Below are positions 1-64,000 of a stretch of DNA of 64,000 bases, piece after piece. Both the position numbers and the translations under genes were made by a program. Every line of letters starts with the position of its first letter. The first letter of the stretch is position 1. Source of the DNA: a bacterium (GTDB lineage: Bacteria > SAR324 > JACQKK01); the NCBI GenBank assembly GCA_965240465.1, contig OZ251219.1, positions 1,056,001 to 1,120,000 of the forward strand, in the 5' to 3' direction. The notes under the pieces were generated by a model, which searched no databases, had not been told where the DNA came from, and saw nothing but the letters and a program-made list of their open reading frames with translations.

Positions 1-638
1 CTATAAGCGGATTTGCAGCCATGAAGGCTCTTTCCACTCGCAATGATGATCCAACCAGGGCTTCCTGCCCTTATGATGTTAATCGGGACGGCTTTGTCAT
101 GGGTGAAGGGGCAGGGATACTAATCCTGGAAGAATATGAACATGCCCGCAAACGTGGGGCCCCTATCTACTGTGAATTGAAAGGCTATGGTGTTAGTTCC
201 GATGCCCATCACATCACCACCCCCAGTGCCGAAGGACCCGAACGCAGTATGAACAATGCTATTAGCGACGCTCAGTTGTCCATAGACGAAATAGACTACA
301 TCAATGCCCATGGCACCTCTACCCCAGTAGGTGATATTAACGAAATGAAGGCTATTAAAGCCGTCTTTGGCGAACGAGCTAACAAAGTTAGTATTTCTGC
401 TACCAAATCCATGATAGGACATTTGCTAGGGGCTGCTGGTGCCGTAGAAGCGATAGCCTCCATTAAGTGTTTAATTAACGGGATTGTGCATCCTTCTATC
501 AACATTGAAGAGTTAGATCCAGAATGCAACCTGAACGTCACCCCCAATGTAGCCAAAGAAATGCCTATAAATGCCGTCATGAGCAACTCTTTCGGTTTTG
601 GTGGTACCAATGCGACGCTCATCTTTCAAAAAATTTAA
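1..638 (+). CDS. fabF: 3-oxoacyl-ACP synthase II, C-terminal part (5' end outside window)
   Basis: [31 protein letters not shown] and [10 protein letters not shown] ketoacyl-synthase motifs. Confidence 0.95.
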
Positions 639-691
639 TTTTTTACAGCACTCGAGACAATTTCAAGCATTTCCTTTGAGAATTATCTCTT

Positions 692-1069
692 ATGATCGTC
701 AAAAGCCTAAGATATACTAAAACACATGAATGGATAAAAGAAGAAGGCAACGTTGTCACCATTGGTATTACAGATTATGCACAAGAACAGCTAACCGAAG
801 TGGTATATGCAGAATTGCCAGAAATAGGTAAGCAATTGAGTGCCGGTGATACGGCTGCTGTGTTGGAATCAGTCAAATCAGTGAGCGATATATATGCTCC
901 TGTGACTGGTAGGGTGGCGAAAGTAAATGCGGCCCTAGTTGATACTCCAGATATTATCAATACCAGCCCCTATGATGAAGGCTGGATATTTAGTTTGGAA
1001 GTAGAAAATATAGAGGGTGATTTCATGGATGCAGATGCCTATCAAGCCTTCATTGGGGAAGATTCTTAG
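692..1069 (+). CDS. gcvH: Glycine cleavage system H protein (lipoyl carrier)
   Basis: YTKTHEW, GITDYAQEQL, ESVKSVSDIYAPVTG (lipoyl Lys), INTSPYDEGW. Confidence 0.95.
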   Translation: MIVKSLRYTKTHEWIKEEGNVVTIGITDYAQEQLTEVVYAELPEIGKQLSAGDTAAVLESVKSVSDIYAPVTGRVAKVNAALVDTPDIINTSPYDEGWIFSLEVENIEGDFMDADAYQAFIGEDS

Positions 1070-1088
1070 TACGCTTTCTGGGGTCCTG

Positions 1089-1265
1089 TTAGGGTTTGTT
1101 AGTACGGTTGCGAAGAGAATCCTCCAGGGAGATTACATTGTCTCCCAGTCCCTCCAAATTATCTTTTATTTTATTCCATTTACCGCAATGCGGGCAGCAT
1201 CCCATCCATTTTGAGAGGCGTTTGAGGCATGCGTGGCAGACAAATCCTCGTCTTTTTTTGGTCAT
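1089..1265 (-). CDS. 58-aa RadA/Sms-type zinc-ribbon mini-protein (not in ORF track)
   Basis: Hand translation: MTKKRRGFVCHACLKRLSKWMGCCPHCGKWNKIKDNLEGLGDNVISLEDSLRNRTNKP*. The F-x-C-x2-C-x6-W-x-G-x-C-P-x-C-x2-W-N pattern matches the RadA N-terminus. Confidence 0.7.
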   Translation of the reverse strand: MTKKRRGFVCHACLKRLSKWMGCCPHCGKWNKIKDNLEGLGDNVISLEDSLRNRTNKP

Positions 1266-1364
1266 AGCTGAAGATAGAAGTAGGGGTTGCTAGGTACAAA
1301 TTGTAGCACACCTAGCAATCTTAGCTGAAAGGCGCGTGAGCGGTATGCTCGTAGTATCCATGGA

Positions 1365-4029: not shown

Positions 4030-6163
4030 TTCTTGTGTTTTTGCAACTAGGGTCGCCACAGATTGAGATGGATGTAATTGCTCTTTGCCTTCTGTGGGAA
4101 TCAGAGAAGACTGTGATGAAATGGTGCTATCTGAGTTATTCATAGTCATTTACGATAAATTATTATAATGATTTTAATAGAATATCCTTGCGTTTGTGCA
4201 TTTTTTTTGTTACAACCCGCTGTATGTAGTGTTTCTCATCATTTCCTTACTGCCAGATTTGGTTATTTACATCAAGTTGATTTTGTTTCTGTGGATGTTG
4301 TTTTAATATTTTTAACCTAGGCTGGCTGTTTTATTCGGTTAGCACAAATTGAAAGATAGTATGTTAATTAAAAAATTTAAGATGGGGGTTAGAATGGTAA
4401 CAGCTTTGTGGTGCTTGTTTTGTTTGTGGATAATCCCGGGCACACCAGAGGTTTGGTCGCAGACTAAAGCTGTAGTGCAGGGTAGTTCCAAGGCTAAAGT
4501 AGGTGGTCTAAGGAGAGGTACGTTTAGCGTGGACCCTGTGACACTACACCCCCTGAATGCAACTGGCGTTTATGCCCAGAATATATTGGGTTCTATCTAC
4601 GAAGATTTGCTGGAGCTAAGTTATGAAAAATTGGAATACACCCCTTTGTTGGCAAAACGCTTTGAGGTTTCCAAAGACAAACTGACTTATACGTTTTACT
4701 TGAATCCCAAGGCAAAATGGGCGGATGGCAAGCCACTAACTGCTGAGGATGTGAAATTCAGCATGGATTTGCTACTTAATAAAAAGCTGAAGACGTTTGC
4801 TAAATGGCAGTCCTACTATTCTAGGGTAAAAAGTGTGAAAGTTCTGGATCCCCATACTGTACGTTTCAATCTTACTGAAGATCATTTTCTAAACATGGTG
4901 AGTCTCGCGGGGATAAGGGTAGTACCGAAACACATGTTTAATTTAGATGAACCTAATAAAACCAAGCTTACCAAGAAGCCAGTGGGTAGTGGGGCGTATC
5001 GCATGACACGCCGTAAGAGGGGAAATAGCATACTGCTGGAACGACGTGATGATTATTGGGGTTGGGATTTGCCGCAAAATAAATATCGCTTCAACGCTAA
5101 GCACGAACTGACAAAAATTATTCTTAATGACAAAGTTGCTTTGGAAACATTCAAGAAAAAGGAACTGGACATACTTTCCTTGACAGCCAAACAATGGGTA
5201 CATGAAACTAAAGATCCAAGGTTTGGGATTGGTAGACAACCAAATAAACCCTTTGTAAAGTTGCAGGTACGAAACAAACAGCCTCGCTCATACGGCTATG
5301 TAGGTTGGAATCTGGAGTCCCCCCTATTTAATGATCGCCGCGTAAGAATGGCTTTGTCTCACCTTTTTGATCGTAAGACAATCATTGATAAATTTTACTT
5401 CAATTTACGTGTTCCCGCGGTGGGCCCATTTGAAGTCAATTCTGTTTACTCTTCTCCTAAAGTAAAGCCGATTAAATTCTCCATTCCCAAGGCCATTGCT
5501 TTGTTGAAAGCCGCCGGTTGGAAAGATACTGATAAAGATGGAATAGTAGACAAAAATGGGCGACCTTTGAGATTTACCGTCCTTACCGCTGATAATGAAA
5601 CTTCACCAAAATTGCTCACCCTGACGCAAGGTAACATGCGTCAGGCAGGAGTAGACTTGAAAATTAAAGTAGTAGAATGGTCAACCCTTCTAAAGATAAT
5701 TGATGAATATACTTATGATGCTGTGATGTTAGGTTGGTCACGGGGTATTTGGACAGACCCGACCGCTTTGTGGCATTCTAAGGGTGCTGTTGCCGGTGGC
5801 TTGAATCTTGTACGCTACAAAAACCCAGAAGTAGACAAGTTGATCGATAGAGCTGCTAAATCTGTTGGTACCAAGGAACGGATTCGTTTGTATCGCAAGG
5901 TTCATGAGTTGATACACAGAGATCAGCCATATGCTTTTATGGTAGAACAGGCCGCCTCTTTCTATGCGTATAATGCTGATTTGCAACAGGCAAAAAAGTG
6001 GTACAACTATGCCCTGGGCAGTGATTACTGGTGGCTTGAAAAGCCAGCTAAGACTAAATAACAAAAGCTTTCTATGTACACATAACGTTGTGCATAAGGA
6101 GCTATGGAGATGGAAGAATGTCAGTTTGATTTGGTGGTGGTTGGTGGCGGTCCTGCGGGGTAT
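4014..6163 (+). repeat. Direct repeat copy 2 (2150 bp)
   Basis: Matches 1604..3753 and continues into intact lpdA. Confidence 0.95.
4349..6061 (+). CDS. ABC transporter family 5 solute-binding protein, copy 2
   Basis: Same motifs as copy 1; 5 amino-acid differences (S/G, L/V, R/G, I/M, H/R). Confidence 0.9.
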   Translation: MKDSMLIKKFKMGVRMVTALWCLFCLWIIPGTPEVWSQTKAVVQGSSKAKVGGLRRGTFSVDPVTLHPLNATGVYAQNILGSIYEDLLELSYEKLEYTPLLAKRFEVSKDKLTYTFYLNPKAKWADGKPLTAEDVKFSMDLLLNKKLKTFAKWQSYYSRVKSVKVLDPHTVRFNLTEDHFLNMVSLAGIRVVPKHMFNLDEPNKTKLTKKPVGSGAYRMTRRKRGNSILLERRDDYWGWDLPQNKYRFNAKHELTKIILNDKVALETFKKKELDILSLTAKQWVHETKDPRFGIGRQPNKPFVKLQVRNKQPRSYGYVGWNLESPLFNDRRVRMALSHLFDRKTIIDKFYFNLRVPAVGPFEVNSVYSSPKVKPIKFSIPKAIALLKAAGWKDTDKDGIVDKNGRPLRFTVLTADNETSPKLLTLTQGNMRQAGVDLKIKVVEWSTLLKIIDEYTYDAVMLGWSRGIWTDPTALWHSKGAVAGGLNLVRYKNPEVDKLIDRAAKSVGTKERIRLYRKVHELIHRDQPYAFMVEQAASFYAYNADLQQAKKWYNYALGSDYWWLEKPAKTK

Positions 6164-7519
6164 GTGGCTGCTATTCGGGGATCTCAACTGGGAATGAGCG
6201 TGGTGTGTGTGGAGAAGCATGCCGCATTGGGGGGAGCTTGCTTGAACGTGGGATGTATCCCTAGTAAGGCACTGTTGGAATCTAGTGAATTGTACTCACA
6301 TGCTCAACATGGAATGTCTGTGCATGGAGTAAATATCACGGGGGCTAAACTAAACTTGTCGGCCATGATGGCAAGGAAGAATAAGGTGGTGTCAAATACC
6401 ACTCGGGGGATTGACATGCTATTGAAAAAAAACAAGGTCAAAAGAATTGAAGGAAAAGGCCAATTGTTGGGTAGTGGAAAGGTGATGGTCAAGTTGGCTA
6501 CGGGGAAGTCAATGACATTAAGCTACAAGCATTTGTTGTTGGCCACAGGTAGTAAGCCCGTAGAGCTGCCAAAAGTACCATTTGATGGTCAACAGGTCAT
6601 CGATTCCACTGCAGCACTGAGTTTGGATAAGGTTCCAGAACATATGATAGTAGTGGGAGGCGGTGCGATTGGTTTGGAAATGGGTTCGGTGTGGATGCGA
6701 TTGGGTGCCAAGGTGAGTATCATAGAGATGAGCAATACTCTGCTAGGAGGATTAGATTCTGAAATAAGTGCACTGGCGGAGAAGGTGTTTAAGAAGCAAG
6801 GTTTTTATTTCTATTTGGGTGCAAAACTTGAGCAGGTAAAACGATCAAAGCAGGGGGTATCGGCTTACTTGAAAAAGCCAAATGGTGATCAAGAAGAGCT
6901 ACAGGGGGATGTGATGTTGGTTTCTGTAGGCAGGCGACCATGTACAGATGGGTTAGGTCTGCAAGAAGCAGGAGTGAAGCAGGATGAGCGGGGAAATATT
7001 GTGGTAGATGATTCATATCAGACCAGTGTGGCGGGAGTGTATGCGGTGGGTGATGTGATAGCAGGTCCTATGCTAGCCCATAAAGCATCCGAAGAGGCAG
7101 TGGCGGTAGTAGAAAATCTGGCAAGCAAAGCTGCAACACGTTTGAACTATAGAGCAATTCCCTGTGTTGTGTATACCTGGCCTGAGATTGCTTGGGTAGG
7201 AAAGGGCGAAAATGAACTAAAGCAGAGTGGAATAGCCTATAATGTAGGCAAGTATCCGTTTATGGCCAATGCTCGTGCTCGTACCATGGACGAAACAGAA
7301 GGGTTGGTAAAAGTACTGGCCGATGCAAAAAATGACCGACTACTCGGATTGTGGATCTTTGGAGCACGGGCATCAGACATGATTTCAGAAGCATCCTTGG
7401 CTATGGAATTTGGTGCCAATGCAGAAGATATTGCTCGCTCAGTGCACGCCCATCCGACCTTATCGGAGGCTATCAAGGAAGCCGCCTTGGCAGTAGGTAG
7501 TGGGGCAATACACATTTAG
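6104..7519 (+). CDS. lpdA: Dihydrolipoamide dehydrogenase (E3)
   Basis: GGGPAGY FAD motif, GGACLNVGCIPSK redox disulfide, HAHPTLSE; aaggag SD upstream. Confidence 0.97.
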   Translation: MEMEECQFDLVVVGGGPAGYVAAIRGSQLGMSVVCVEKHAALGGACLNVGCIPSKALLESSELYSHAQHGMSVHGVNITGAKLNLSAMMARKNKVVSNTTRGIDMLLKKNKVKRIEGKGQLLGSGKVMVKLATGKSMTLSYKHLLLATGSKPVELPKVPFDGQQVIDSTAALSLDKVPEHMIVVGGGAIGLEMGSVWMRLGAKVSIIEMSNTLLGGLDSEISALAEKVFKKQGFYFYLGAKLEQVKRSKQGVSAYLKKPNGDQEELQGDVMLVSVGRRPCTDGLGLQEAGVKQDERGNIVVDDSYQTSVAGVYAVGDVIAGPMLAHKASEEAVAVVENLASKAATRLNYRAIPCVVYTWPEIAWVGKGENELKQSGIAYNVGKYPFMANARARTMDETEGLVKVLADAKNDRLLGLWIFGARASDMISEASLAMEFGANAEDIARSVHAHPTLSEAIKEAALAVGSGAIHI

Positions 7520-7716
7520 AAAAAATGAAGCTATATCTGGTGGTTTTTCAATGACTGCTATAGGATTTTAGAAAAGCAATAAACGGTTAGAGATGTTCTC
7601 TTACCCTAAAAAAACTTGCAATATGAAGGACAAATTGGATACATTGATACCCCGCTGGGATATAATTTACGGGGAGGAGTGATGGGTCCTTTGTTTCAAG
7701 CATTAAAGGGGTTTAT

Positions 7717-8778
7717 ATGGCACAAGCAAAAAAGAGACACCTACACGCAGTAGAAAAACCTAAGCTGCTAGACATAAAAGATTTGACCCAACGACAGCAA
7801 GAGTTGCTGAATGAATTGGGAGCTAAAAAATTGGTACAGATGTATCGGGATATGTTTTTAATTCGCTCGTTTGAGCGATATGCTGAGCATATGTATCAAC
7901 AGCAAAAGATTAGAGGATTCTTGCACGTGTACATGGGGCAAGAAGCGGTAGGGGTCGGTATGCTCAGTGCCTTGCGAAAAGATGACTATGTTACCGCTTC
8001 TTATCGTGATCATGGAATCTCGCTGGCCTTGGGCTTAGATCCTGGGGCTTGCATGGCAGAATTGTTCGGCAAAGCGACAGGAGTATCAGGAGGTCGGGGA
8101 GGTTCAATGCATTATTATAGCAAGGATAAAAATTTATTTGGTGGTCATGGAATTGTAGGTGGTCAAATTCCGGTGGGCTTGGGGGCTGGCTTTGCTACTT
8201 ATTATGAGGGTAGCGACAAAGTCAGTTTGGTGCTAATGGGTGATGGTGCGGTGCAGCAGGGTTCTTTTCACGAGTGTTGCAATATGGCAGGATTGTGGCA
8301 GTTGCCAGTTCTATTTGTGATAGAAGACAACATGTATGGCATGGGTACCTCGGTTGATAGGGCTTCTGCAGTGAGTGATTTTACACTAAAAGGAGAGGGA
8401 TACGCGATGGAGTCCTTTCATGTGGATGGGATGAATCTGCTGGATTGCTATGCCACAATAAGCGATGCGGTAGCTGTCCGACGTAAAAAACCTTCCCCTT
8501 TGTTAGTAGTAGCAAAGACGTATAGATATCGTGGGCACTCCATTTCGGATCCTGCGGGTTATCGCAGTAAGTTAGAAGTTGAACATTATCGGCAAATGGA
8601 TCCTATCCAACAAATAAAAGGGTTGCTACTCAAATTAAACTGGCTGACCGATGATACCGTCAAACAGCTGGAACACGATGTGCGTAACCAAATACAGGAA
8701 GCAATAAAATTTGCTGAAGAAAGTCCCGAGCCAGAGCTTTCAGATCTAGGGAAACATGTATTTGCTGAAGAGATATAA
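7717..8778 (+). CDS. pdhA: Pyruvate dehydrogenase E1 alpha
   Basis: IRGFLHVYMGQEAV, GRGGSMH, GDGA...N TPP motif, TYRYRGHS. Confidence 0.95.
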   Translation: MAQAKKRHLHAVEKPKLLDIKDLTQRQQELLNELGAKKLVQMYRDMFLIRSFERYAEHMYQQQKIRGFLHVYMGQEAVGVGMLSALRKDDYVTASYRDHGISLALGLDPGACMAELFGKATGVSGGRGGSMHYYSKDKNLFGGHGIVGGQIPVGLGAGFATYYEGSDKVSLVLMGDGAVQQGSFHECCNMAGLWQLPVLFVIEDNMYGMGTSVDRASAVSDFTLKGEGYAMESFHVDGMNLLDCYATISDAVAVRRKKPSPLLVVAKTYRYRGHSISDPAGYRSKLEVEHYRQMDPIQQIKGLLLKLNWLTDDTVKQLEHDVRNQIQEAIKFAEESPEPELSDLGKHVFAEEI

Positions 8779-8909
8779 TTAAGCAGTTAGGATCATTGTA
8801 AAAAAGAAAAATTAGGTGAACCGGCAATGAAAACAATGATGATTATAAATAACAATTATGACAGCGATTATAGCGGTGATATTAAAGTCGCGGCAACAAG
8901 GAGACTGTG

Positions 8910-9893
8910 ATGAGTAAGACGGTCACCACTAGAGAGGCTCTTAGAGAAGCCTTAATTGAAGAAATGGAGCACGATGAGCGTGTGTTTCTGATCGGAGAAG
9001 AAGTAGCCGAATATGATGGGGCATACAAGGTAAGCGAAGGATTGTTAAAGCAGTTTGGAAAGCGTCGGGTAGTGGATACGCCCATCTCCGAGAATGGTTT
9101 TATGGGGCTTTCTGTGGGGGCAGCAATGGCGGGGTTAAGGCCAGTTGTTGAATTTATGAGCTTTAATTTTTCTTTGGTGGCCTTGGATCAAGTTTTTTCT
9201 AATGCAGCCAAGACTTGCTATATGTCGGCAGGACAGTTTAATTTACCGATGGTGATGCGAGGACCTGGAGGGGCAGCGGCTGGAGTTTCATCTCAACATT
9301 CCAACTGTTTGGAGAGTTTCTTCGCGTATATGCCAGGGCTCAAGGTGGTTATGCCAGCTACGCCTAATGACGCCAAAGGTTTGTTGAAGACCGCGATCCG
9401 GGATGAGAATCCAGTGGTATTCATAGAAAATGAATTGCTGTATGGAATATCGGGGGAAGTGGAAAGCGGGGAAGTTTTAATTCCATTTGGGAAAGCACGC
9501 ATTACCAAGCTAGGCAAGGATGTGACCATCGTTGCCCATAGTAATATGCAGCATATGCTGACTACCAAGTTGGCAGAATTTGAGGCAGAAGGAATTGATG
9601 TGGAATTGATAGATCCGCGTACCATCAAACCCCTTGATATTGACACCATTGTGGAGTCGGTAAGAAAAACGCATAGAATGGTGGTGATGGAAGAAGGGCA
9701 TCGCTTTGCTGGAGTAGGAGCAGAAATTGCTGACCAAACTTACAATTGTTGCTTTGATGAATTAGATGCTCCTATCTTACGAGTGGCTCAAAGCGAAAAC
9801 CCCTTGCCTTATGCTAAGAATTTAGAAGCGGCTTCCTTGCCTTCGGTTGGTCAAGTAATAAGAGCTGCCAAAGAGGTTTTATATCGAAATTAG
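8910..9893 (+). CDS. pdhB: Pyruvate dehydrogenase E1 beta
   Basis: GEEVAEYDGAYKVS, DTPISE, RPVVEFM, QHS. Confidence 0.95.
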   Translation: MSKTVTTREALREALIEEMEHDERVFLIGEEVAEYDGAYKVSEGLLKQFGKRRVVDTPISENGFMGLSVGAAMAGLRPVVEFMSFNFSLVALDQVFSNAAKTCYMSAGQFNLPMVMRGPGGAAAGVSSQHSNCLESFFAYMPGLKVVMPATPNDAKGLLKTAIRDENPVVFIENELLYGISGEVESGEVLIPFGKARITKLGKDVTIVAHSNMQHMLTTKLAEFEAEGIDVELIDPRTIKPLDIDTIVESVRKTHRMVVMEEGHRFAGVGAEIADQTYNCCFDELDAPILRVAQSENPLPYAKNLEAASLPSVGQVIRAAKEVLYRN

Positions 9894-9982
9894 TGGAAAG
9901 GAGGGGGGATTTCTGGCAGTGGAACGAAGTTTTGATGCAGTGTGTTTAGTGCAGTGGAAATGAAATTAAGAAAGGATACATA

Positions 9983-55853: not shown

Positions 55854-56709
55854 AACAGATTTATGCAAAAAAATGACTATTTTAGAAGCAACAATTTCCC
55901 AGTCCGCGATCAATAATCCCGCAGTATCCAAGCCAGTTACAACTTGGGCTGTTATTCCTGCTCGCAGTCAGTCAGTTAGATTTCCGGGCAAGCCGTTGGC
56001 GTCCATACTGGGTAAGCCAATGATAGAACATGTCTGGCAGCGTACTCAGGCATCCCCTGAGGTTAACAGAACCTTTATTGCTACTGATGATGAAGACATC
56101 GCCAAGGCGGCACGGGGATTTAAGGCTGAGGTGGTTATGACAGGCACTTGTGAAACTGGCGGAGAAAGGGTTGCTGAGGCAATACACATTTTGACATCCT
56201 CTCTGAAGTCTGGGCGTTCTCCTGATTGGGTACTTAATGTTCAAGGCGATGAGCCTACCATCAATCCTCAAGACCTCTCTACCCTAGTCAAGGGCATGAA
56301 CCAAGCCCGCAATCAATCTGCCAGACTAGGAACGCTTATTTACCCTATTACCGAACAGCAAGTTCTAGATAATCCCCACGTGGTAAAAGTTGTTATCAAC
56401 CAACAGCAGCAGGCACTCTATTTTTCTCGTGCTCCTATCCCACATGTACCAGCACATGCCCAATCTGAAACTGGAACCCAACTACAGTCTTGCTGGCAGC
56501 ATATCGGGGTTTATTGTTTCAAAACCTCTTTTTTGGAAACATTTGCTACTCTGCCAAACACTCCGCTTTCACAACAAGAACAATTAGAACAACTACGGGT
56601 GCTTGAACATGGGATCCCGATATTTTGCTTCCCCGCCCAAACACTATCAATTGGTGTAGATGCTCCTGCAGACATTGCCAAAGCCGAGAAAGCACTTTTA
56701 AGTAGTTAG
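55819..56709 (+). CDS. kdsB: CMP-KDO synthetase (start uncertain)
   Basis: IPAR-x2-S-x-RFPGKPL, NVQGDEP, ALYFSRAPIP, HIGVY, EQLEQLR. Confidence 0.93.
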   Translation: MSNPTQLPSHPETDLCKKMTILEATISQSAINNPAVSKPVTTWAVIPARSQSVRFPGKPLASILGKPMIEHVWQRTQASPEVNRTFIATDDEDIAKAARGFKAEVVMTGTCETGGERVAEAIHILTSSLKSGRSPDWVLNVQGDEPTINPQDLSTLVKGMNQARNQSARLGTLIYPITEQQVLDNPHVVKVVINQQQQALYFSRAPIPHVPAHAQSETGTQLQSCWQHIGVYCFKTSFLETFATLPNTPLSQQEQLEQLRVLEHGIPIFCFPAQTLSIGVDAPADIAKAEKALLSS

Positions 56710-57770: not shown

Positions 57771-57981
57771 TTTTTACCAGTGGTTCTGTTGGAGTTTTTC
57801 ATTTATCAGCTGGCAAGCAAATTTATTAGCAGCTAACCTTACCTGATTATTTGCTGTGCTGCTCTGAGACGAATAATTCCACGCTAGTTTTTACATGTTG
57901 ACATATTACTTGGATGAACATACAACCTAAGATGGGGTATGCGAGGAAAAGGGCTGGTAACCGTGATAAAAATGGTAATTC

Positions 57982-58770
57982 ATGATTGATTTCAAGGGCA
58001 AGCGAGGATTGGTGTTGGGGATAGCCAATCAGCGTAGCATTGCTTATGCGGTAGCTAGAGGTTTGAGTGATAGCGGAGCGGATTTGGCATTGACGTACGC
58101 TCCGGATACTAAGGGTCGTTTTGAGAAGTTTGTGCGAGGTTTGCAGGATAAATTGACGGTTTCAGCGGTGTTACCCTTAGATGTTAGAGAGGACAAGCAG
58201 TGGGAGGATTTGTTTGGAGATTTAGATAAGGTTTGGTCTGAGGGTTTTGATTTTGTTTTGCATTCGGTTGCTTATGCAGAGCGTGATGATTTAGAGAAGG
58301 GTTTTTCAAGTACCTCGCGTGAGGGATGGATGATAGCCCAAGATGTGAGTGCGTATTCATTGTTGCCATTATCGCGATTGGCAACCGAAAGGATGAAGGG
58401 TCGTCAGGGGGGTGGATCGTTGGTGAGCATGTCTTTTATTGGGGCTCTACTGGCGGTTCCCAATTATAATGTGATGGGTCCAGCCAAAGCCGCTTTGGAA
58501 GCGGCTACCCGATATTTAGCACGTCAATATGGCACGGAGAACATCCGTTTTAATTGTGTTTCTGCTGGGGCTTTGCGGACGTTGTCATCAATGGGGGTGA
58601 ATAATTTTAGCGAGATGCTCCAAATTGCTGGTGACCATTCTGCTTTGGAGCGTAATATATTGGTAGGGGAGATAGCTAATGCTGCACTCTTTCTACTCAG
58701 CGATATTTCTTCTGGTGTTACAGGCCAAACTCTTTATGTGGACGGCGGCTTTAACGTAATGGCTAACTAA
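57982..58770 (+). CDS. fabI: Enoyl-ACP reductase
   Basis: GIANQRSIA, SAYSL, YNVMGPAKAALE, TGQTLYVDGG. Confidence 0.95.
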   Translation: MIDFKGKRGLVLGIANQRSIAYAVARGLSDSGADLALTYAPDTKGRFEKFVRGLQDKLTVSAVLPLDVREDKQWEDLFGDLDKVWSEGFDFVLHSVAYAERDDLEKGFSSTSREGWMIAQDVSAYSLLPLSRLATERMKGRQGGGSLVSMSFIGALLAVPNYNVMGPAKAALEAATRYLARQYGTENIRFNCVSAGALRTLSSMGVNNFSEMLQIAGDHSALERNILVGEIANAALFLLSDISSGVTGQTLYVDGGFNVMAN

Positions 58771-58786
58771 AACGGGAAGTTCCCCC

Positions 58787-59224
58787 ATGGGAACGAGCAA
58801 ATCAGACCACCAACTACCAGCATTTGACAGCCCTGCAGTAATTCGTACTGACTGGTTGGAGACGTTTGAATATCAGGGGCCACGCCAAAAAATTCAGTAC
58901 TGCAGTAAGGAGTTCTCTGCGGTTTGCCCTTATTCTGGGCTACCAGATGTTGCCGAGCTAAGTATTCATTACATTCCCTCTAAGCTTGTGTTGGAATTAA
59001 AATCTCTCAAGTACTACCTTGTTTCCTTTCGTAATGTGGGAATATTCCAAGAGCCAGCCACTGCCAGAATTTATGAAGACATGTTTGCTCTGTTAAAGCC
59101 TCAACGGCTTTTGGTTAAAACCCGCTACAATACCAGAGGAGGTATTGATGCACTCTGTGAAATATGCTCTGAACAGCAAGCCAATCCATCCCCTGCCAGT
59201 GAGACCATAAGCCATGGCCGATAA
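58787..59224 (+). CDS. queF: preQ0 reductase QueF (type I)
   Basis: EFSAVCPYSGLPD, ELKSLKYY, RGGI. Confidence 0.93.
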   Translation: MGTSKSDHQLPAFDSPAVIRTDWLETFEYQGPRQKIQYCSKEFSAVCPYSGLPDVAELSIHYIPSKLVLELKSLKYYLVSFRNVGIFQEPATARIYEDMFALLKPQRLLVKTRYNTRGGIDALCEICSEQQANPSPASETISHGR

Positions 59225-59954
59225 TAAAATTAGCGTGTGGGTCAATGGAGCTAAGGGCAAAATGGGACGTCAAGTTACCCAAGCTGTGCAGGCTACCCCA
59301 GATCTCGTACTATCAGGGCAAAGCGATAAGGATGACAATCTCACCGAGTGTTTATCCCAAGCACAACCGGATGTTTGTGTTGATTTTACTCACCCTGAGG
59401 TAGTCTACAAAAATGCTAGTACCATCATTGCCGCGGGTGTAAGTCCGATCATCGGCACTACGGGGCTTAAAGAATCCGAGGTTAAAGCCTTAGCTGCTGA
59501 AACCCAGGACCAGCAAGGAGGCCTAATCGCCCCTAATTTTGCTATCGGGGCAATACTAATGATGCGTTTTGCTGCAGAAGCAGCTAAATTTTTTTCTTAT
59601 GCCGAAATTGTAGAGATCCATCATGATGGCAAAGCAGATGCCCCCTCGGGCACAGCTATTAGTACCGCAGCGGGTATTCAGAAAAACCGACCTAATCCTC
59701 CGAGCTTGAAAACCATTTCACAAGAGCTTTATCAAGGTGCTCTGGGTGCTAAGGTACATGGTACTACCATCCATGCCTTGCGTTTGCCCGGTTTTATTGC
59801 CAACCAAGAGGTTATCTTAAGCCAAGCGGGCGAGAATTTAAGGATATCACATCAAGTAATCCACCGAGAATGCTTCATGCCGGGGGTGATTCTTGCCTGC
59901 CGTAAGGTGCCGTCATTAACGAAGCTGCATTATGGTCTGGAGAGCATTATTTAG
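59214..59954 (+). CDS. dapB: 4-hydroxy-tetrahydrodipicolinate reductase
   Basis: GAKGKMG, DFTHP, GTTG, APNFAIG, EIHHDGKADAPSGTA. Confidence 0.95.
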   Translation: MADNKISVWVNGAKGKMGRQVTQAVQATPDLVLSGQSDKDDNLTECLSQAQPDVCVDFTHPEVVYKNASTIIAAGVSPIIGTTGLKESEVKALAAETQDQQGGLIAPNFAIGAILMMRFAAEAAKFFSYAEIVEIHHDGKADAPSGTAISTAAGIQKNRPNPPSLKTISQELYQGALGAKVHGTTIHALRLPGFIANQEVILSQAGENLRISHQVIHRECFMPGVILACRKVPSLTKLHYGLESII

Positions 59955-59992: not shown

Positions 59993-62900
59993 TCATTGGG
60001 GTAGCTGAATGTTGCTTTTGATATTCAATGGTTGAGATTCTGGTACTAGGTGTATTTGGAGGATGCGGGGGTTTGTTTGCAGAGTGTTTTTTAGGATATC
60101 TATAACTTGGTTTTGTGTAATAGATTGCAGATGTTTAGCAAGTAATTGTCTGCGTTGGGGGTTTTCGTGTAGGAAGATGTTCTTAAAGTTGTAGTAAGTG
60201 AGGGAAGCAAGACTGTTGAAGTGTTGAGTTTGCTCAGCGAGGGCATTGGACTTTAGTTGTTCAAATTTGTCTGCGGGGAGGTTTTCAATGTGTTTAACGA
60301 ATAAGGGGATGAAGGCTTGGATTCGGGATTGGAGGTATTCTGAGGAGTATTCAGCTGACTGCACTGCCATAATCAAGGAATTACTTTTGAGTATTGATCT
60401 AGGATAAGCGACGGTATAGTATCCTAGTTGTTGTTCGGTGCGAAGTTGATTAAAGAAAAGTTCATAAAAAGGCGATCGTAAGATGCTGATGACAGATTCT
60501 ATTGTGGGTAGAGATACTTCAGGTGAGAATTGGTAATAATTGAGGGCAAAGTTGTTGCTATGTTTGATTGGATGGTGGAATTGAAAGGTTTTTTTGGAGG
60601 GGATGATTTTTACTGTTGGTGGGATTTGAGTAGTTTCAGAGTTAGGGCTTGGGGCTATTTTGGCAAGCATCTTGGAGGCTTTTTTGGGTGATAGACTACC
60701 GACAATCAGGGCTTCCAGTTGGAATGAGCTGAACACCTTTTGGGCGTATGTTAGGACATCTTCGAGCGAAGTGTTTTTTGAGGCCTCAGCCAGATGGGTC
60801 GGGTGATGGTATGCAGGCAGCAATAGGGGGTATAGGAAGTCTGTAGACTGATTTGCGGGGGCATCGGTTTCTGTATCCAGCCAATCTTTCCTTATTGTTT
60901 GTTTAATACTATCAAAGCGTGCGGTGGAGATGGAAGGTTTCTGCATGTGCTGGATGAGTAGTTCCAACACTTTGGGTAATTGGTCAGAATATCCTTCTAT
61001 TCCCAGGAACATCCCTTTGCTGGAGTATTTTAGATTGTAGCTGATGGCAGCAATGAGTAAGGGATAGCCCAGTTCGTTAAGGCTTTCTAAGACTGTACTA
61101 ATATACAATTCAGTGAGTGCCTGCTGCTGGCGGTTTTTGCCGTGTTGAGGCAAGGTAAATTGCAACATTATTTTAGATTTAGGAGCACGGAAATGCCAGT
61201 CTTCCAGGTGAAATGCTTTTACAGATGGTGTTTGTAGCAACAGGGTAGGTTGAGGAGAAAGAACCTGATTGATAGATTTTTCCAAAGTACTTGTTATGCG
61301 TGGGAGCAGGGTTTTCAATTCAGATTGGAATTCGCCAAAGTTTTTGAATGAGTTTTCTTTCATTTGTGTAAGGGCATTAATTGCCTCGGGGGGCAAATTG
61401 TTTTCTTTGGCTCTTATTAGGGTATCTTCACCGATGTAGGGGGCTGCCGCGCGGTTTAACAAGCGGGTATCTTTAGCGATGAATTTGTTAGGTTGAGGCA
61501 GCTTCCAGCGAGGATCTGGTTCGGCATTGAGCAGCTGTTTATATAAATCGCCAGAGATTTCTTCATAGCTGTAAGAGGTTTTATAATAATAATCGGTTTT
61601 GTTACCTTTAATGTTTTTGTCTGCCAGTATCACCTGCATGCGTTCCGCAGAGAAGTTCTGCATGGCTTCATGTTGTATTTTAGAATTGGGGCGAGTGGGA
61701 CCGTATCTTGCTCGGGGGAGGGAATCAAGAGGGAACAAAACCATGGAACTAGCGTTTCTGGTAGCTACACGTGTGGCACTGGTTTCGTTGTCAAAGTCAA
61801 AATCAAGCTGTGATAGTTGAACATCTTGCTTGAGTAGCCATTCAGGAAGAGGTTGCTTTTTAAGAGCATTAAAAACTCCAATGGTTTTTAGTAGAACCTC
61901 TTGGTACTGCTCTACTCCTTTGGGAGTCAGTTCAATGGACACACTCAGATTAGATCCTCCCAGTGCGTTTATGTATTCGGACGAATGCAAAGCTACTGCC
62001 AGTTCATCTTCCTTTAGCAAAGAAAGCAGGCTACCAGGTCCTTCATGAGCAAGCACATGATTGATAGCCGACAGAGGCTGCTCACGATAGTATTCATTGA
62101 ACCTTTCCAATAAGAAATCAATTATCAGTTCTGGAGAGTCCTTTACAGAACGAACTTTAACAAGCCGTAGTGCTTGCTTTGGTTCAGTACCATAAGTGGA
62201 TAGCTCTAATTTTTTCAGATCACGAACTTCAATGGGAGAAAAATATTTCTTTGTAAGTTCTTCCAAATACTCCAACGGTTGAGGCCCAACTATAGACAAG
62301 TTCATGTTATCGGCTGAATAATGATCAAGAAAAAAGTCATTAAGTACTTTTGGGGTGACATTCTTTAGGCTTTCTGCATTGCCAGTATAAAATCCCCGCC
62401 GAGGATCATCTTCATCATAGATAGAGCGTCTCAAATTATATATGCGCCAGCCATCTGAGCTTATATTTTTCGCATGTTCAGATGCTACCGCTTTAACTTC
62501 TTTATCCGTGTATTCTTCTGATAACAGGGGAGAAATAAAAAATTGTGAGAAACGGTCTAAAGCTCCTTCCAATGCGTTTGGCAAAACCGTAAAGTGGTAA
62601 TTAGTGTGGTCATTAGATGTATAAGCGTTGGCATAGCCACCATTATCAGCCAGGTACCTTGAATAATCGTTATTTTTTGGATATTTCTCAGTCCCCAAAA
62701 ATAGCATATGCTCCAGAAAATGTGCCAACCCTTGATGCTCTTTAGGATTGTGTATAGAGCCAGTCTCCACCGCTAGTGACGCGGCAGAATCAGAGAACCG
62801 GGAATCAGATACCAATATAACCTCCAGACCGTTCTCCAGTTTAAGGATGGAAATTCTTTTTCCTGAGTCCCCCATTTCCCCACGATATAACATCAATAGT

Positions 62901-63010
62901 CCTCCAATTATTCCTGCCAATATTAGTACCCCTAGCAAGACCTGATTGTTTTTCAAGTAATTTTTTGCCTTGCTAGCAACGTTTTTAATAAGTCCCATTT
63001 TGTAGTCCAT
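59993..63010 (-). CDS. M16A (insulinase/pitrilysin-like) zinc peptidase with N-terminal TM anchor
   Basis: GLAHFLEHMLFLGTEKYP, NAYTS, LDRFSQFF, FNQLRTEQQLGY. Confidence 0.92.
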   Translation of the reverse strand: MDYKMGLIKNVASKAKNYLKNNQVLLGVLILAGIIGGLLMLYRGEMGDSGKRISILKLENGLEVILVSDSRFSDSAASLAVETGSIHNPKEHQGLAHFLEHMLFLGTEKYPKNNDYSRYLADNGGYANAYTSNDHTNYHFTVLPNALEGALDRFSQFFISPLLSEEYTDKEVKAVASEHAKNISSDGWRIYNLRRSIYDEDDPRRGFYTGNAESLKNVTPKVLNDFFLDHYSADNMNLSIVGPQPLEYLEELTKKYFSPIEVRDLKKLELSTYGTEPKQALRLVKVRSVKDSPELIIDFLLERFNEYYREQPLSAINHVLAHEGPGSLLSLLKEDELAVALHSSEYINALGGSNLSVSIELTPKGVEQYQEVLLKTIGVFNALKKQPLPEWLLKQDVQLSQLDFDFDNETSATRVATRNASSMVLFPLDSLPRARYGPTRPNSKIQHEAMQNFSAERMQVILADKNIKGNKTDYYYKTSYSYEEISGDLYKQLLNAEPDPRWKLPQPNKFIAKDTRLLNRAAAPYIGEDTLIRAKENNLPPEAINALTQMKENSFKNFGEFQSELKTLLPRITSTLEKSINQVLSPQPTLLLQTPSVKAFHLEDWHFRAPKSKIMLQFTLPQHGKNRQQQALTELYISTVLESLNELGYPLLIAAISYNLKYSSKGMFLGIEGYSDQLPKVLELLIQHMQKPSISTARFDSIKQTIRKDWLDTETDAPANQSTDFLYPLLLPAYHHPTHLAEASKNTSLEDVLTYAQKVFSSFQLEALIVGSLSPKKASKMLAKIAPSPNSETTQIPPTVKIIPSKKTFQFHHPIKHSNNFALNYYQFSPEVSLPTIESVISILRSPFYELFFNQLRTEQQLGYYTVAYPRSILKSNSLIMAVQSAEYSSEYLQSRIQAFIPLFVKHIENLPADKFEQLKSNALAEQTQHFNSLASLTYYNFKNIFLHENPQRRQLLAKHLQSITQNQVIDILKNTLQTNPRILQIHLVPESQPLNIKSNIQLPQ

Positions 63011-63146
63011 GTTTTTAATTCCAAAAGATAAGCTGGACTACCTCCTTCCCAGCATCATCGGTAAATTTATACTACCTACGATTACATTAAATTGATACAT
63101 TTTAGGATACTTAGTCAACTAAATGTTTAACTCATCTCCTTAGGTA

Positions 63147-63644
63147 ATGTCAAAACATATATACATTTCCCTGGGCTCAAACTTAGAACCCAGAAAACAT
63201 CTGCCTGAGGCCATGGCAGGGCTGAAAAAATTGGTCACCGTTCATAACATCAGCCCCACTTATCGAAGTATGCCTTACGGCATTACTGCTCAGCCCCATT
63301 TTCTTAACGTCGTCACCGAGTGCTTTGCAGACTGCACTCCTCTGCAACTGTTGAAACAATTGCTCTCCCTTGAAAAAACCCTGGGGCGAGTTAGAGCTAA
63401 CATTCCTAAAAATGGACCACGCTTAATTGACCTTGATATCCTAGACTTCCAATCTCTCACCATGTCTCACCCCCAACTTACTCTACCACACCCTCAGCTA
63501 CACAAAAGAAATTTCATCCTTAAGCCACTCAGCGATGTCAGCCCCAGCTGGCGACATCCCATCCTAAAGTGTTCAGCCGCAAAATTATTGCAAGATAATC
63601 AAACCAACCCGCCAGTCCGTGAATTCCTCAAACTGAATGCCTAA
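63147..63644 (+). CDS. folK: 6-hydroxymethyl-7,8-dihydropterin pyrophosphokinase
   Basis: LGSNL, FLNVV, GPRLIDLDIL, LPHP, RNFIL-x-PL. Confidence 0.95.
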   Translation: MSKHIYISLGSNLEPRKHLPEAMAGLKKLVTVHNISPTYRSMPYGITAQPHFLNVVTECFADCTPLQLLKQLLSLEKTLGRVRANIPKNGPRLIDLDILDFQSLTMSHPQLTLPHPQLHKRNFILKPLSDVSPSWRHPILKCSAAKLLQDNQTNPPVREFLKLNA

Positions 63645-63672
63645 GCCAAATGCCTAAGCCAAATGCCTAAGC
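63636..63672 (+). repeat. 13-bp tandem repeat (aatgcctaagcca, about 2.8 copies) carrying both convergent stop codons
   Basis: folK TAA lies in unit 1; the DUF805 TAG (minus strand) lies in unit 3. Confidence 0.9.
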
Positions 63673-64000
63673 AGAGCCAGCATCGGTTTTATCAGCGGAT
63701 GGAATTTGATCAGGTAGCACAGGTTGCTCTGTGGGTTTCTGTTCTTGATTATCAAGCTCATCCTGCGTGTTATCCTTTTCCTGTTGCGAGGGTACATCCC
63801 CATAGCGATTTGCATTTGGCTCGCTGGGTTTGAATAGCAATATCAGGCCGAATATGAAGCTCACCAAGGGAATGAGAAACAATAGGCACCACCAGCCACT
63901 CCAACCAATATCGTGTAGGCGTTGCACTGGAAGGCAAATGATATTAGCCCAGCTGTACAGGAGGTAAAGAGGTAGATATACCAGCAGGAAAAGGTCAGCT
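63667..64000 (-). CDS. DUF805 family membrane protein, C-terminal part (5' end outside window)
   Basis: QRLHDIGWSGWW-x-LLFLIP...NRYG; frame stays open to the window edge. Confidence 0.88.
   Translation of the reverse strand, partial: ADLFLLVYLPLYLLYSWANIICLPVQRLHDIGWSGWWCLLFLIPLVSFIFGLILLFKPSEPNANRYGDVPSQQEKDNTQDELDNQEQKPTEQPVLPDQIPSADKTDAGSA

What the first reader, a model, noticed from the sequence alone, without database searches (positions are those of the whole stretch)
1..64000. Sawtooth G/T-to-C/A strand skew that resets at transcription-unit boundaries regardless of gene direction
Seen: on the + strand, blocks start G/T-rich, drift to C/A-rich, then jump back. Hand counts in selected 60-nt lines: moeA (+) 53881-53940 G27/C6 versus 55441-55500 G6/C19. 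The minus-strand M16 gene, read on +, gives 60061-60120 G19/C4 versus 62881-62940 G6/C17. clpB gives 41281-41340 G20/C6 versus 42541-42600 G9/C17. Line 47581-47640 gives G6/C23. Resets fall in intergenic gaps of every type, near 20.9, 23.6, 29.5, 30.9, 32.0, 37.2, 38.8, 40.8, 43.5, 50.4, 53.8, 56.7, 57.9 and 59.95 kb. Wavelength appears to scale with operon length: the long + run is G-rich at 6-11 kb and C-rich at 18.5-20.7 kb. So the sense strand of each unit is G/T-rich at 5' and C/A-rich at 3', and protein ends shift accordingly (G/V/E/R-rich starts, Q/P/T/H/N-rich ends). Established: ordinary bacteria show one skew sign per replichore, flipping C-to-G only at the origin. Inference: many origin-like flips could mean dispersed or transcription-coupled (R-loop) replication initiation, a boundary-anchored ssDNA-damage or repair gradient, or selection on mRNA structure. 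The counted lines were picked by eye and are not a statistical test.
Basis: partly seen in the sequence, partly recalled or inferred. Interest (0 to 1): 0.85.

Follow-up and report, generated by a model that had tools for sequence, protein, structure and literature searches.

The report
Operon-by-operon G-to-C skew sawtooth
In this small bacterial genome and its sister species, every operon-like block of genes starts G-rich and ends C-rich on its own coding strand, even at silent codon positions; this pattern is known in mirror image from yeasts, its cause is still open, and I found no report of it in bacteria.

Summary
All 7 hand counts are exact. All 14 named resets are local upward skew jumps. 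Genome-wide, 504 of 688 ORFs of at least 900 nt lose G and gain C from 5' to 3' at third positions. At fourfold sites C rises from .240 to .305 and G falls from .214 to .156, while A and T stay flat.

Jumps occur at real intergenic gaps of every orientation. They do not occur at same-strand junctions of 40 nt or less, so the unit is an operon-like block. The gradient adds to an ordinary single-origin replication skew.

The congener G001 shows the same gradient. Eleven other relatives and E. coli do not.

Dispersed replication origins are not supported. The cause is unresolved. I favour a transcription-unit-anchored, strand-asymmetric substitution pressure (about 0.4) over selection on nascent RNA (about 0.3). 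The closest precedent is the opposite-sign gene skew of unicellular fungi (PMC3315797). Earlier notes of this scan report similar sawteeth on other DNA: a Planctomycetota genome with opposite sign and a giant-virus-like genome with the same sign.

The parts
6104..20751 (+). Long same-strand run of 11 ORFs forming one slow tooth, from G-rich to C-rich
   Evidence: 500-nt skew goes from +0.35/+0.38 at 6-7 kb to -0.11/-0.14 at 19.5-20.5 kb. GC3 skew by thirds is +0.51 +0.67 +0.13 in the first ORF and -0.08 -0.23 +0.08 in the last.
20700..20700 (.). Upward jump (reset)
   Evidence: J=+0.40, 97th genome percentile, 51 nt from an ORF end.
23540..23540 (.). Upward jump (reset) upstream of the 23S rRNA gene
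   Evidence: J=+0.48, 98.7th percentile. The 23S rRNA gene is at 24364-27367.
37190..37190 (.). Upward jump (reset)
   Evidence: J=+0.39.
40885..43485 (+). clpB: a single-gene tooth
   Evidence: Pfam AAA_2, ClpB_D2-small and Clp_N. GC3 skew by thirds is +0.51 -0.46 -0.14.
43420..43420 (.). Upward jump (reset)
   Evidence: J=+0.42.
44474..50285 (+). Four-ORF tooth: GH15 glycosidase, an ORF of unknown family, a class II aminoacyl-tRNA synthetase (my reading: thrS), and a small ORF
   Evidence: Pfam hits. GC3 thirds are +0.40 +0.26 -0.14, then +0.28 -0.29 -0.47, then -0.21 -0.47 -0.43. All-site skew goes from +0.32 to -0.38.
50370..50370 (.). Upward jump (reset)
   Evidence: J=+0.35.
53793..55853 (+). 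moeA-like gene with a strong internal gradient
   Evidence: Pfam MoeA_N, MoCF_biosynth and MoeA_C. GC3 thirds are +0.55 +0.38 -0.22.
56650..56650 (.). Upward jump (reset)
   Evidence: J=+0.39.
57880..57880 (.). Upward jump (reset), the strongest in the window
   Evidence: J=+0.59, 99.5th percentile.
57982..59954 (+). Three-ORF tooth
   Evidence: GC3 thirds are +0.62 +0.63 +0.12, then +0.04 -0.11 -0.30, then -0.20 -0.13 +0.13.
59930..59930 (.). Upward jump (reset) at a convergent junction
   Evidence: J=+0.52, 99.1st percentile. It lies between the + ORF ending at 59954 and the - ORF 59993-63010.
59993..63010 (-). M16 peptidase gene on the minus strand. Its own sense strand also runs G-rich to C-rich, so the + strand shows the same left-to-right fall.
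   Evidence: Pfam Peptidase_M16, M16_M and M16_C. Sense GC3 thirds are +0.16 -0.27 -0.55. + strand skew goes from +0.48 to -0.30.

Best explanation
WHAT IT IS (shown): each operon-like block is a run of same-strand genes with no real gap between them. Each block carries its own antisymmetric G/C gradient: the sense strand has G over C at the block's start and C over G at its end. The gradient is strongest at silent sites and weaker at first and second codon positions. It is added on top of an ordinary single-origin replication skew.

HOW IT MOST LIKELY ARISES (inferred): a substitution pressure tied to the transcription unit treats the two DNA strands unequally, and the disfavoured strand changes along the unit. 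Near the start the sense (non-template) strand loses C relative to G. Near the end the template strand does. One possible cause is that strand exposure, damage or transcription-coupled repair differs between the initiation-proximal and termination-proximal phases of transcription. In a small, drift-prone genome this pressure is written into silent sites and, more weakly, into protein composition.

Not shown: that the pressure is mutational rather than selective, and which enzyme or lesion is involved.
For: Anchoring
- Upward jumps sit at ORF boundaries (72% within 100 nt, against 22% of random points). Downward changes do not.
- The jump is about 0 at same-strand junctions of 40 nt or less, and +0.19 to +0.28 at most classes of real gap in G000. 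G001 shows the same.
- Multi-ORF blocks of 3-6 kb show a block-scale gradient.

Action at the nucleotide level
- All 8 fourfold codon boxes shift.
- Twofold sites shift by the only synonymous route open to them: G/(A+G) falls from .479 to .346.
- All three codon positions shift in the order pos3 > pos1 > pos2. Relatives are flat at all three.
- The shift is the same in all four next-base contexts.

Not replication
- Slopes are equal in leading and lagging genes.
- The effect is additive with the replication offset.

Ongoing force
- G000 and G001 share only 36.8% identity at aligned fourfold sites, against 25.3% by chance. Both still show the gradient.
- Fourfold-only slopes of 358 orthologue pairs correlate at r=0.47.

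Pointing to mutation rather than selection
- In G000 the first-versus-last-third contrast matches the leading-versus-lagging contrast at all six site classes. For example C is .228/.293 against .230/.294, and G is .222/.168 against .216/.169.
- The drop is slightly larger in the least conserved proteins (-0.47) than in the most conserved (-0.33).
- The trait appears only in the genome-reduced genus of 1.6-1.7 Mb, and not in 11 relatives or E. coli.
Against: - Terminator-side resets at convergent gaps are as large as promoter-side resets, and larger in G001. A process proportional to sense transcription does not predict this.
- Outward skew does not correlate with gap GC content or with the number of -10-like hexamers facing that way (rho about 0 in both genomes).
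- Differences between recent paralogues have an ordinary spectrum: 61-64% transitions and 7-8% C<->G in the two identity bands with enough differences (866 and 8980; a third band has only 19). These are mostly GLUG-family copies.
- In G001 the replication contrast is richer in C<->T than the gene-position contrast, so the signature match is imperfect.
- No candidate gene loss tracks the trait. Rho and Mfd are present in 5 of 5 genomes. Family-1 Ung and RecG are absent in 5 of 5. MutY is missing only in G000. Y-family polymerase is also missing in G009, which has no gradient. RNase HI and HII, MutS, MutM and RecA are found in G000.
- The C-richness stops at the stop codon instead of running into the 3' flank.
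- Orthologues whose neighbourhood differs between the two species gave no clear shift (5' end p=0.65, 3' end p=0.07).
Confidence: 0.4

Rival explanations
1. Selection on the composition of the nascent RNA. The starts of units are kept G-rich and C-poor, and the ends C-rich and G-poor. C-rich, G-poor, unstructured RNA is what the Rho termination factor loads on (recalled knowledge, not from a call). Such a ramp would protect the ribosome-free early part of a transcript and favour termination at the end of the unit. It might equally tune RNA:DNA hybrid or R-loop stability.
For: - The target looks like G and C content as such. G is exchanged for C where that is synonymous and for A where only that is synonymous, with A and T flat at fourfold sites.
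- The shift is independent of sequence context.
- The unit is the operon-like block, with equal amplitude at its two ends.
- Rho is present.
- Intrinsic-terminator-like hairpins downstream of ORFs are no commoner than inside ORFs in G000 (12% against 13%). The same crude detector gives 36% against 17% in E. coli.
- Per-gene slopes are reproducible between the two species.
- The paralogue substitution spectrum is ordinary.
Against: - The gradient is kilobases wide, far wider than a Rho loading site needs.
- It alters protein composition.
- It is not stronger in conserved proteins, used here as a proxy for high expression.
- It appears in the reduced genomes, where weak selection should work worst.
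- Relatives with Rho and an equally poor terminator signal (G009) lack it.
- The 3' flank just after the stop codon is not C-rich.
- In G000 its composition signature equals that of replication skew, which is normally read as mutational.
Confidence: 0.3
2. An orientation-blind DNA process anchored in intergenic gaps. An example would be repair or restart synthesis that begins in gaps and runs outward for about 1-3 kb on the strand leaving the gap 5' to 3', with a biased error spectrum.
For: - All gap types reset about equally, and junctions without a gap do not, including convergent pairs with gaps of 10 nt or less (n=14 and n=12, J about 0).
- A symmetric two-ended decay model fits best in both genomes. 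For G000, dDev is 1918 against 1472 for a 5'-only model, with lambda about 1 kb. For G001, dDev is 1906 against 1197.
- Amplitude is independent of the expression proxy.
- The signature resembles replication skew.
Against: - No shared motif was found in the gaps of either genome.
- Jump size is unrelated to tandem repeats, gap GC or gap length beyond about 40 nt.
- By all-site skew, divergent gaps jump more (+0.13 to +0.23) than convergent ones (+0.06 to +0.15).
- No such process is known to me.
Confidence: 0.15
3. Dispersed replication origins at gene boundaries, or a sawtooth set by fixed Okazaki-fragment start sites.
For: The geometry is that of origin-flanked skew: an abrupt C-to-G jump followed by a gradual decline. 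In G000, leading genes run from +0.23 to -0.07 and lagging genes from -0.02 to -0.25. This is close to what a fork-entry model predicts.
Against: - Replichore skew is conventional, with one DnaA-like gene at its minimum.
- The gene amplitude (0.39-0.42 logit) is 2-2.5 times the replication offset (0.16-0.21 logit). G001 has the weaker replichore skew but an equal or stronger gradient.
- Teeth range from about 1 kb to 14.6 kb and follow gene blocks, not a fixed length.
- There is no reset at tight junctions.
Confidence: 0.03
4. Position-dependent codon selection through tRNAs (a translational ramp, or the growing cost of errors along a gene).
For: G-ending codons of Glu, Lys and Gln have no C-starting anticodon tRNA in the 44-tRNA set, so their decline toward the 3' end could be read as rising codon optimality.
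Against: - First and second codon positions shift the same way.
- Fourfold boxes that do have CNN tRNAs (Ala, Gly, Pro, Thr, Val, Ser, Leu) also shift.
- The unit is the block, not the cistron.
- The effect is not stronger in conserved genes.
Confidence: 0.03

Closest known systems
[quoted passage not shown]
   Same: - The two ends of a gene have opposite skew sign, with intermediate values between.
- Fourfold sites and amino-acid usage are both affected.
- AT skew is comparatively uniform.
- The 3' effect peaks at the stop codon rather than beyond it.
- The cause is unresolved, with mutational and adaptive hypotheses both open.
   Different: - Polarity is reversed: fungi run C to G, this genome runs G to C.
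- The unit here is an operon-like block, not a single gene.
- This organism is a bacterium with a different RNA polymerase and coupled translation.
- The fungal skew extends into promoters and 3' UTRs. Here the flanks are near zero.
Replication-associated GC skew of bacterial chromosomes
   Same: - The composition signature at fourfold and twofold sites is the same in G000.
- The upward jump has the geometry of an origin.
   Different: - Replication skew has one sign per replichore and flips only at origin and terminus. That component is present here as a separate, additive term.
- The sawtooth is anchored on gene blocks and is independent of fork direction.
Transcription-associated strand asymmetry, including skews that decay from transcription starts in mammals (seen only as search listings and the opening lines of abstracts: PMC2927911, PMC2817419, PMC3787257; the rest is recalled)
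   Same: - The skew is anchored at the starts of transcription units.
- It decays over about 1-2 kb.
- It runs in both directions from a boundary.
   Different: - Classical bacterial transcription skew keeps one sign along the gene and pairs G>C with T>A. Here the sign reverses and A and T do not follow at fourfold sites.
- No dependence on an expression proxy was seen.
Sawtooth ('N-domain') skew between replication origins in mammalian genomes (recalled, not read here)
   Same: The shape is the same: abrupt upward jumps separated by gradual declines.
   Different: - Scale: megabases there, 1-15 kb here.
- The mammalian pattern is tied to mapped origins.
- Here amplitude grows with unit length instead of staying fixed.
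Earlier notes of this scan on other DNA (e1-3893603, Planctomycetota, C to G; e1-5666717, giant-virus-like genome, G to C; unchecked AI notes)
   Same: Both describe a gene-anchored sawtooth at silent sites, and both also compare it with the fungal pattern.
   Different: - They concern other lineages, and one has the opposite sign.
- I did not re-test them.
- The operon-level unit and the match to the replication signature are shown only here.

Membership tests
Replication-associated (replichore) GC skew | Skew sign is set by replication direction and flips only at origin and terminus | tested here: not met
   The background component meets this: cumulative minimum at 600 kb, maximum at 1560 kb, and a DnaA-like gene at 605 kb. 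The sawtooth does not: the slope is the same in leading and lagging genes (-0.201 and -0.199 per kb), and there are 203 upward jumps with J>=0.4 across the genome.
Origin-bounded sawtooth (N-domain type) | Upward jumps coincide with replication origins | not testable with these tools
   No replication-timing or nascent-strand data exist. No raw reads are available, only contigs. Indirect evidence is against it: one DnaA-like gene and a normal replichore skew.
Origin-bounded sawtooth (N-domain type) | Jump amplitude is fixed and independent of domain length | tested here: not met
   The first-to-last drop grows from 0.22 for 1-kb units to 0.36 for 2-kb units. In single-gene units it grows from 0.24 to 0.44.
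Classical transcription-associated strand asymmetry | The coding strand keeps one sign along the whole unit | tested here: not met
   The sign reverses. With the replication offset removed, block quarters are +0.14, +0.04, -0.11 and -0.23. The two-ended model beats the 5'-only model.
Classical transcription-associated strand asymmetry | G>C is accompanied by T>A (the cytosine deamination signature) | tested here: not met
   At fourfold sites T goes .306 to .299 and A .239 to .240 while C and G swap. The weak A-T trend over all sites is also present in relatives that have no G/C gradient.
Classical transcription-associated strand asymmetry | Strength scales with expression | tested here: inconclusive
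   Only a proxy was available (protein conservation between G000 and G001). The drop is -0.33 in the most conserved quartile and -0.47 in the least conserved. No RNA holder was listed.
Fungal-type opposite GC skews at gene ends (McLean & Tirosh 2011) | Opposite skew signs at the 5' and 3' ends with an intermediate middle | tested here: met
Fungal-type opposite GC skews at gene ends (McLean & Tirosh 2011) | Fourfold-degenerate sites and amino-acid usage are both affected | tested here: met
   All 8 fourfold boxes shift. D, V, C and W fall; Q, N, Y, I, T, K, H and P rise. The GC skew gradient at positions 1 and 2 is absent in relatives.
Fungal-type opposite GC skews at gene ends (McLean & Tirosh 2011) | Polarity: C-biased at the 5' end and G-biased at the 3' end | tested here: not met
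   Here the 5' end is G-biased and the 3' end C-biased.
Fungal-type opposite GC skews at gene ends (McLean & Tirosh 2011) | The skew extends into promoters and 3' UTRs | tested here: inconclusive
   Upstream flanks have a skew of only +0.03 to +0.09. Downstream flanks are -0.08 in the first 20 nt and then 0 to +0.08. Flanks are short and mixed with signals.
Translational ramp / position-dependent codon bias | The effect is confined to synonymous codon choice and to each cistron | tested here: not met
   Codon positions 1 and 2 shift too. There is no reset at tight cistron junctions.

The most novel reading that the evidence does not exclude
Bacteria can carry a so far undescribed strand-asymmetric substitution process that is anchored on transcription units. 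It switches the affected strand between the start and the end of each unit, and it can outweigh replication skew two-fold. It would be the bacterial counterpart, with reversed sign, of the unexplained fungal gene skew. Different lineages (this genus, a Planctomycetota group, a giant-virus-like genome) would show it with either sign. The skew would then be a sequence-only read-out of operon boundaries and of a hidden step in transcription-coupled damage or repair.
Probability: 0.4. Interest if true: 0.8.

Novelty: new variant of a known kind. Interest (0 to 1): 0.62.

Why it matters
- Standard teaching holds that bacterial GC skew reports replication direction. Here a second, stronger layer reports operon structure. 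It reshapes silent sites and protein ends, and it has been maintained in two species whose silent sites are about 85% randomised relative to each other.
- It offers a clean comparison for a question left open since the fungal report of 2011: what makes the two ends of a transcription unit mutationally or selectively different? Two small complete genomes have the trait, and 11 sampled relatives do not.
- Practical use: the jumps could mark operon boundaries in uncultured genomes without RNA data. They also distort methods that use skew to find origins, or codon usage to find foreign genes.
- My six literature searches (and on the lineage) found no description of such a pattern in bacteria. Subscription journals and supplementary files were not searchable.

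Tried and rejected
- **Artefact of ORF calling:** rejected. The gradient holds in the 411 ORFs that have a congener orthologue and in the middle quintiles of genes.
- **Long genes looked flat.** This traces to a 56-ORF GLUG-motif family with its own RNY-like codon pattern. I left that family out by homology from then on. With it included, a 5'-only model fitted better.
- **A gene-level reset inside operons** seemed present in unpaired analyses. It vanished in the paired third-position test.
- **Link to tandem repeats:** 1472 TRF arrays, but jump size is the same with or without a repeat in the gap.
- **Spurious bidirectional promoters in AT-rich gaps:** no correlation with gap GC or with -10-like hexamers.
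- **A shared gap motif:** none found.
- **G-runs or quadruplex motifs:** the GGG/CCC ratio follows base composition.
- **Next-base context:** none.
- **A G<->C-rich mutation spectrum:** paralogue differences are ordinary.
- **Loss of intrinsic terminators as the distinguishing trait:** relatives G009 and G008 also show little or no enrichment.
- **Candidate gene losses** (rho, mfd, ung, recG, mutY, Y-family polymerase): none tracks the trait.
- **Low GC content as the cause:** G028 (40.8% GC) is flat, although n=17 ORFs.
- **Natural experiment on orthologues with changed neighbourhood:** inconclusive.
- **Expression and polymorphism data:** no RNA holder was listed, and the DNA holders are kept as contigs only, so I laid no reads.

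Full report
**1. Setting**

No gene caller was available, so I used my own rule: the longest ORFs of at least 100 aa, accepted greedily with at most 15% overlap. This gave 1206 ORFs covering 89% of the genome. ORFs shorter than 100 aa are missed and starts are the longest possible, so gap sizes are approximate.

- clpB at 40885-43485.
- A moeA-like gene at 53793-55853.
- An M16 peptidase at 59993-63010 on the minus strand.

**2.

- All seven quoted 60-nt lines have exactly the stated G and C counts.
- The 500-nt profile shows the teeth.
- With a jump statistic J (skew of the 600 nt to the right minus the 600 nt to the left), all 14 named resets are local upward jumps. Eight reach J>=0.35, and these are exactly the window's eight peaks at that threshold, each 21-102 nt from an ORF end. 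The other six lie at the 85th-95th genome percentile.
- In the window, 19 of 23 ORFs of at least 900 nt fall in third-position skew from 5' to 3'.

Genome-wide:
- 504 of 688 ORFs fall. 190 are significantly negative and 32 significantly positive at p<0.01.
- Of the 80 strongest upward jumps, 72% lie within 100 nt of an ORF boundary, against 22% of random points. Half lie in non-ORF DNA, against 11%.
- Of the 47 strongest downward jumps, 21% lie near a boundary, against 23% of random points. This asymmetry is what defines a sawtooth.

**3. Which sites change**

- At fourfold-degenerate sites C rises from .240 to .305 and G falls from .214 to .156 across gene quintiles, in all eight codon boxes. 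A (.239 to .240) and T (.306 to .299) stay flat.
- At twofold sites G/(A+G) falls from .479 to .346 and C/(C+T) rises from .366 to .393. In G001 the values are .517 to .342 and .382 to .484.
- GC skew falls at all three codon positions, in the order pos3 > pos1 > pos2, in G000 and G001. It does not fall in relatives.
- Amino acids follow: D, V, C and W fall; Q, N, Y, I, T, K, H and P rise.
- The A-T skew trend along genes is also present in relatives. The lineage-specific part is therefore G against C, not 'G/T to C/A'.
- The shift is the same whatever the next base. GGG/CCC ratios follow base composition.

**4. The unit is an operon-like block**

Unpaired analyses suggested a partial reset at every gene. 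The paired third-position test is clearer.

| Junction type (G000) | Jump |
|---|---|
| Same strand, gap 10 nt or less | +0.03 +- 0.04 |
| Same strand, gap 11-40 nt | -0.02 +- 0.04 |
| Tandem, gap 41-120 nt | +0.19 |
| Tandem, gap over 120 nt | +0.22 |
| Convergent, by gap class (11 nt and more) | +0.28, +0.07, +0.24 |
| Divergent | +0.19 to +0.27 |

- G001 repeats this: -0.07 and -0.01 at tight junctions, and up to +0.53 at convergent gaps.
- Multi-ORF blocks of 3-6 kb show a block-scale fall. G000 quarters are +0.17, +0.08, +0.02 and -0.08; G001 quarters are +0.23, +0.09, -0.06 and -0.09.
- The drop grows sublinearly with length.
- Once the GLUG family is left out (paragraph 9), a symmetric two-ended decay model fits best (G000: dDev 1918; G001: dDev 1906). 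It beats both a linear-in-relative-position model (1862; 1687) and a 5'-only model (1472; 1197).

The caveat is that my units are inferred from spacing, not from RNA.

**5. It is not replication**

- Cumulative skew has one minimum (about 600 kb) and one maximum (about 1560 kb).
- The only DnaA-like gene lies at 605,074-606,393. The match is full length but scores 206.8 bits, below the curated cut-off of 343.9.
- Slopes are equal in leading and lagging genes. Their profiles are parallel: +0.23 to -0.07 and -0.02 to -0.25.
- A model in which all the skew arises where forks enter units would need the gene amplitude to equal the replication offset. The amplitude is in fact 2-2.5 times larger (0.42 against 0.21 logit in G000; 0.39 against 0.16 in G001).
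- In G001, lagging genes start G-rich (+0.085) and leading genes end C-rich (-0.093).
- G001 has the weaker replichore skew (about +-0.05) but an equal or stronger gradient.

**6. It is specific to the lineage and actively maintained**

- The congener G001 (1.72 Mb; 1.2 Mb examined) shows the gradient.
- None of 11 other relatives does. Five have 23 or more ORFs (G009 74, G008 50, G019 35, G030 33, and G011 and G022 23 each). Six have fewer (G028 17, G004 13, G014 7, G005 5, G015 4). Mean whole-gene changes in the eight genomes lie between -0.02 and +0.17, all within about two standard errors of zero.
- E. coli (150 kb, 58 ORFs) shows a weak trend of the opposite sign: fourfold skew goes from +0.07 to +0.22.
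- G000 and G001 are about 70% identical in DNA. At 31,213 aligned fourfold sites, identity is 36.8% against 25.3% by chance, so about 85% of these sites are randomised.
- Both genomes still have the gradient. Fourfold-only slopes of 358 orthologue pairs correlate at r=0.47 (r=0.58 for all third positions). Conserved exceptions such as rpoB are shared.
- The force is therefore ongoing and depends on the gene's context or identity.

**7. What causes it**

*Evidence pointing to a mutational, strand-asymmetric pressure:*
- In G000 the composition of first against last thirds of genes equals that of leading against lagging genes at all six site classes. Fourfold C is .228/.293 against .230/.294. 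G is .222/.168 against .216/.169. T is .304/.290 against .308/.286. The two twofold ratios match likewise. 'A and T flat' is therefore no argument against mutation in this genome.
- The response at codon positions 1 and 2 is a third to a half of that at position 3.
- The drop is a little larger in poorly conserved proteins.
- The trait is confined to the two reduced genomes.

*Evidence against a simple transcription-driven process:*
- Terminator-side resets equal promoter-side ones.
- Nothing correlates with promoter-likeness or gap composition.
- The paralogue spectrum is ordinary.
- G001's replication signature is richer in C<->T than its gene-position signature.
- No candidate gene tracks the trait.

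*Selection on nascent RNA* (for instance a ramp in Rho accessibility) fits the operon unit, the G-for-C exchange, and the lack of terminator-like hairpins. It does not fit the kilobase width, the effect on proteins, the lack of any expression effect, or the fact that relatives with the same Rho and terminator status are flat.

*An orientation-blind, gap-anchored DNA process* fits the symmetry, but I found no element for it.

My weights are:
- Unit-anchored mutational or repair asymmetry: 0.40.
- RNA-level selection: 0.30.
- Gap-anchored DNA process: 0.15.
- Dispersed origins: 0.03.
- tRNA-based codon selection: 0.03.
- Something else: the remainder.

**8. Comparison with what is known**

The closest description is McLean & Tirosh 2011 on unicellular fungi. 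I read the abstract, outline, passages and Discussion.
- Shared features: opposite skews at the two gene ends, at fourfold sites and in amino-acid usage; uniform AT skew; a 3' effect that peaks at the stop codon; and an unresolved cause.
- Differences: the sign there is reversed (C to G) and the unit is the gene.

Six literature searches turned up no bacterial description. Subscription journals and supplements were out of reach.

Two earlier notes of this scan report comparable sawteeth on other DNA. One is a Planctomycetota genome with the fungal sign; the other is a giant-virus-like genome with the present sign. I did not re-test them.

**9. A confounder worth knowing**

Fifty-six ORFs (143,895 bp, 9% of G000) belong to a GLUG-motif family.
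- They are rich in G, D, S, T and N.
- First positions are purine-rich and third positions pyrimidine-rich.
- Mean third-position GC skew is -0.50.
- They show no gradient.

These ORFs made long genes look flat and favoured a 5'-only model. I left them out by homology from then on. None was found in 1.2 Mb of G001.

**10. Verdict**

The replication-origin reading is not supported. The damage-or-repair reading is plausible but unproven. I class the finding as a new variant of a known kind: a bacterial, operon-scale, sign-reversed counterpart of the fungal gene skew.

Noticed in passing
window 50612-52960 (+); genome-wide in G000, e.g. L044-L053: A GLUG-motif protein family of 56 ORFs (about 144 kb, 9% of the genome). 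The proteins are rich in G, D, S, T and N. Codons are RNY-like and third-position GC skew is -0.50. No homologue was found in 1.2 Mb of the congener G001.
   Followed up: partly
window 1604-3753 and 4014-6163: A 2150-bp direct duplication at 99.6% identity (9 mismatches). Each copy carries a 570-aa family-5 solute-binding protein ORF (1939-3651 and 4349-6061).
   Followed up: partly
window 24364-28610: The 23S rRNA gene (24364-27367) has no 16S gene next to it in the window. About 1.1 kb separates it from the 5S gene (28495-28610), and that spacer holds two ORFs (27510-27989 and 28056-28460).
   Followed up: no
G000:C1:164968-169227 (-) and its G001 orthologue: rpoB runs against the rule, with a C-rich start and a G-rich end, in both species (slopes +0.49 and +0.82).
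   Followed up: no
G000 intergenic gaps, genome-wide: Homopolymer C/G runs of 10 or more occur in 30 of 826 gaps. TRF finds 1472 tandem-repeat arrays covering 14% of non-ORF DNA and 6% of ORF DNA.
   Followed up: partly
G000, G001, G008, G009, G004 (whole genomes): No RecG and no family-1 uracil glycosylase over the cut-off in any of the five genomes. MutY is missing only in G000. Y-family polymerase is missing in G000, G001 and G009. In G000, tblastn at E<=1e-5 found no hit to E. coli dnaQ, dut, recX or rph.
   Followed up: partly
G000:C1:605074-606393 (-): The only DnaA-like match is full length but scores 206.8 bits, well under the curated cut-off of 343.9. The initiator is divergent.
   Followed up: no
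G000 3' flanks, genome-wide: Hairpin-plus-T-tract structures are no commoner downstream of ORFs (12%) than inside them (13%). The same crude detector gives 36% against 17% in E. coli. In G001, gap words such as GGCAGCAGCC next to T runs suggest that it has some hairpin terminators.
   Followed up: partly
window 44001-44500: A sharply AT-rich non-coding stretch (28.8% G+C) upstream of the glycosidase gene.
   Followed up: no
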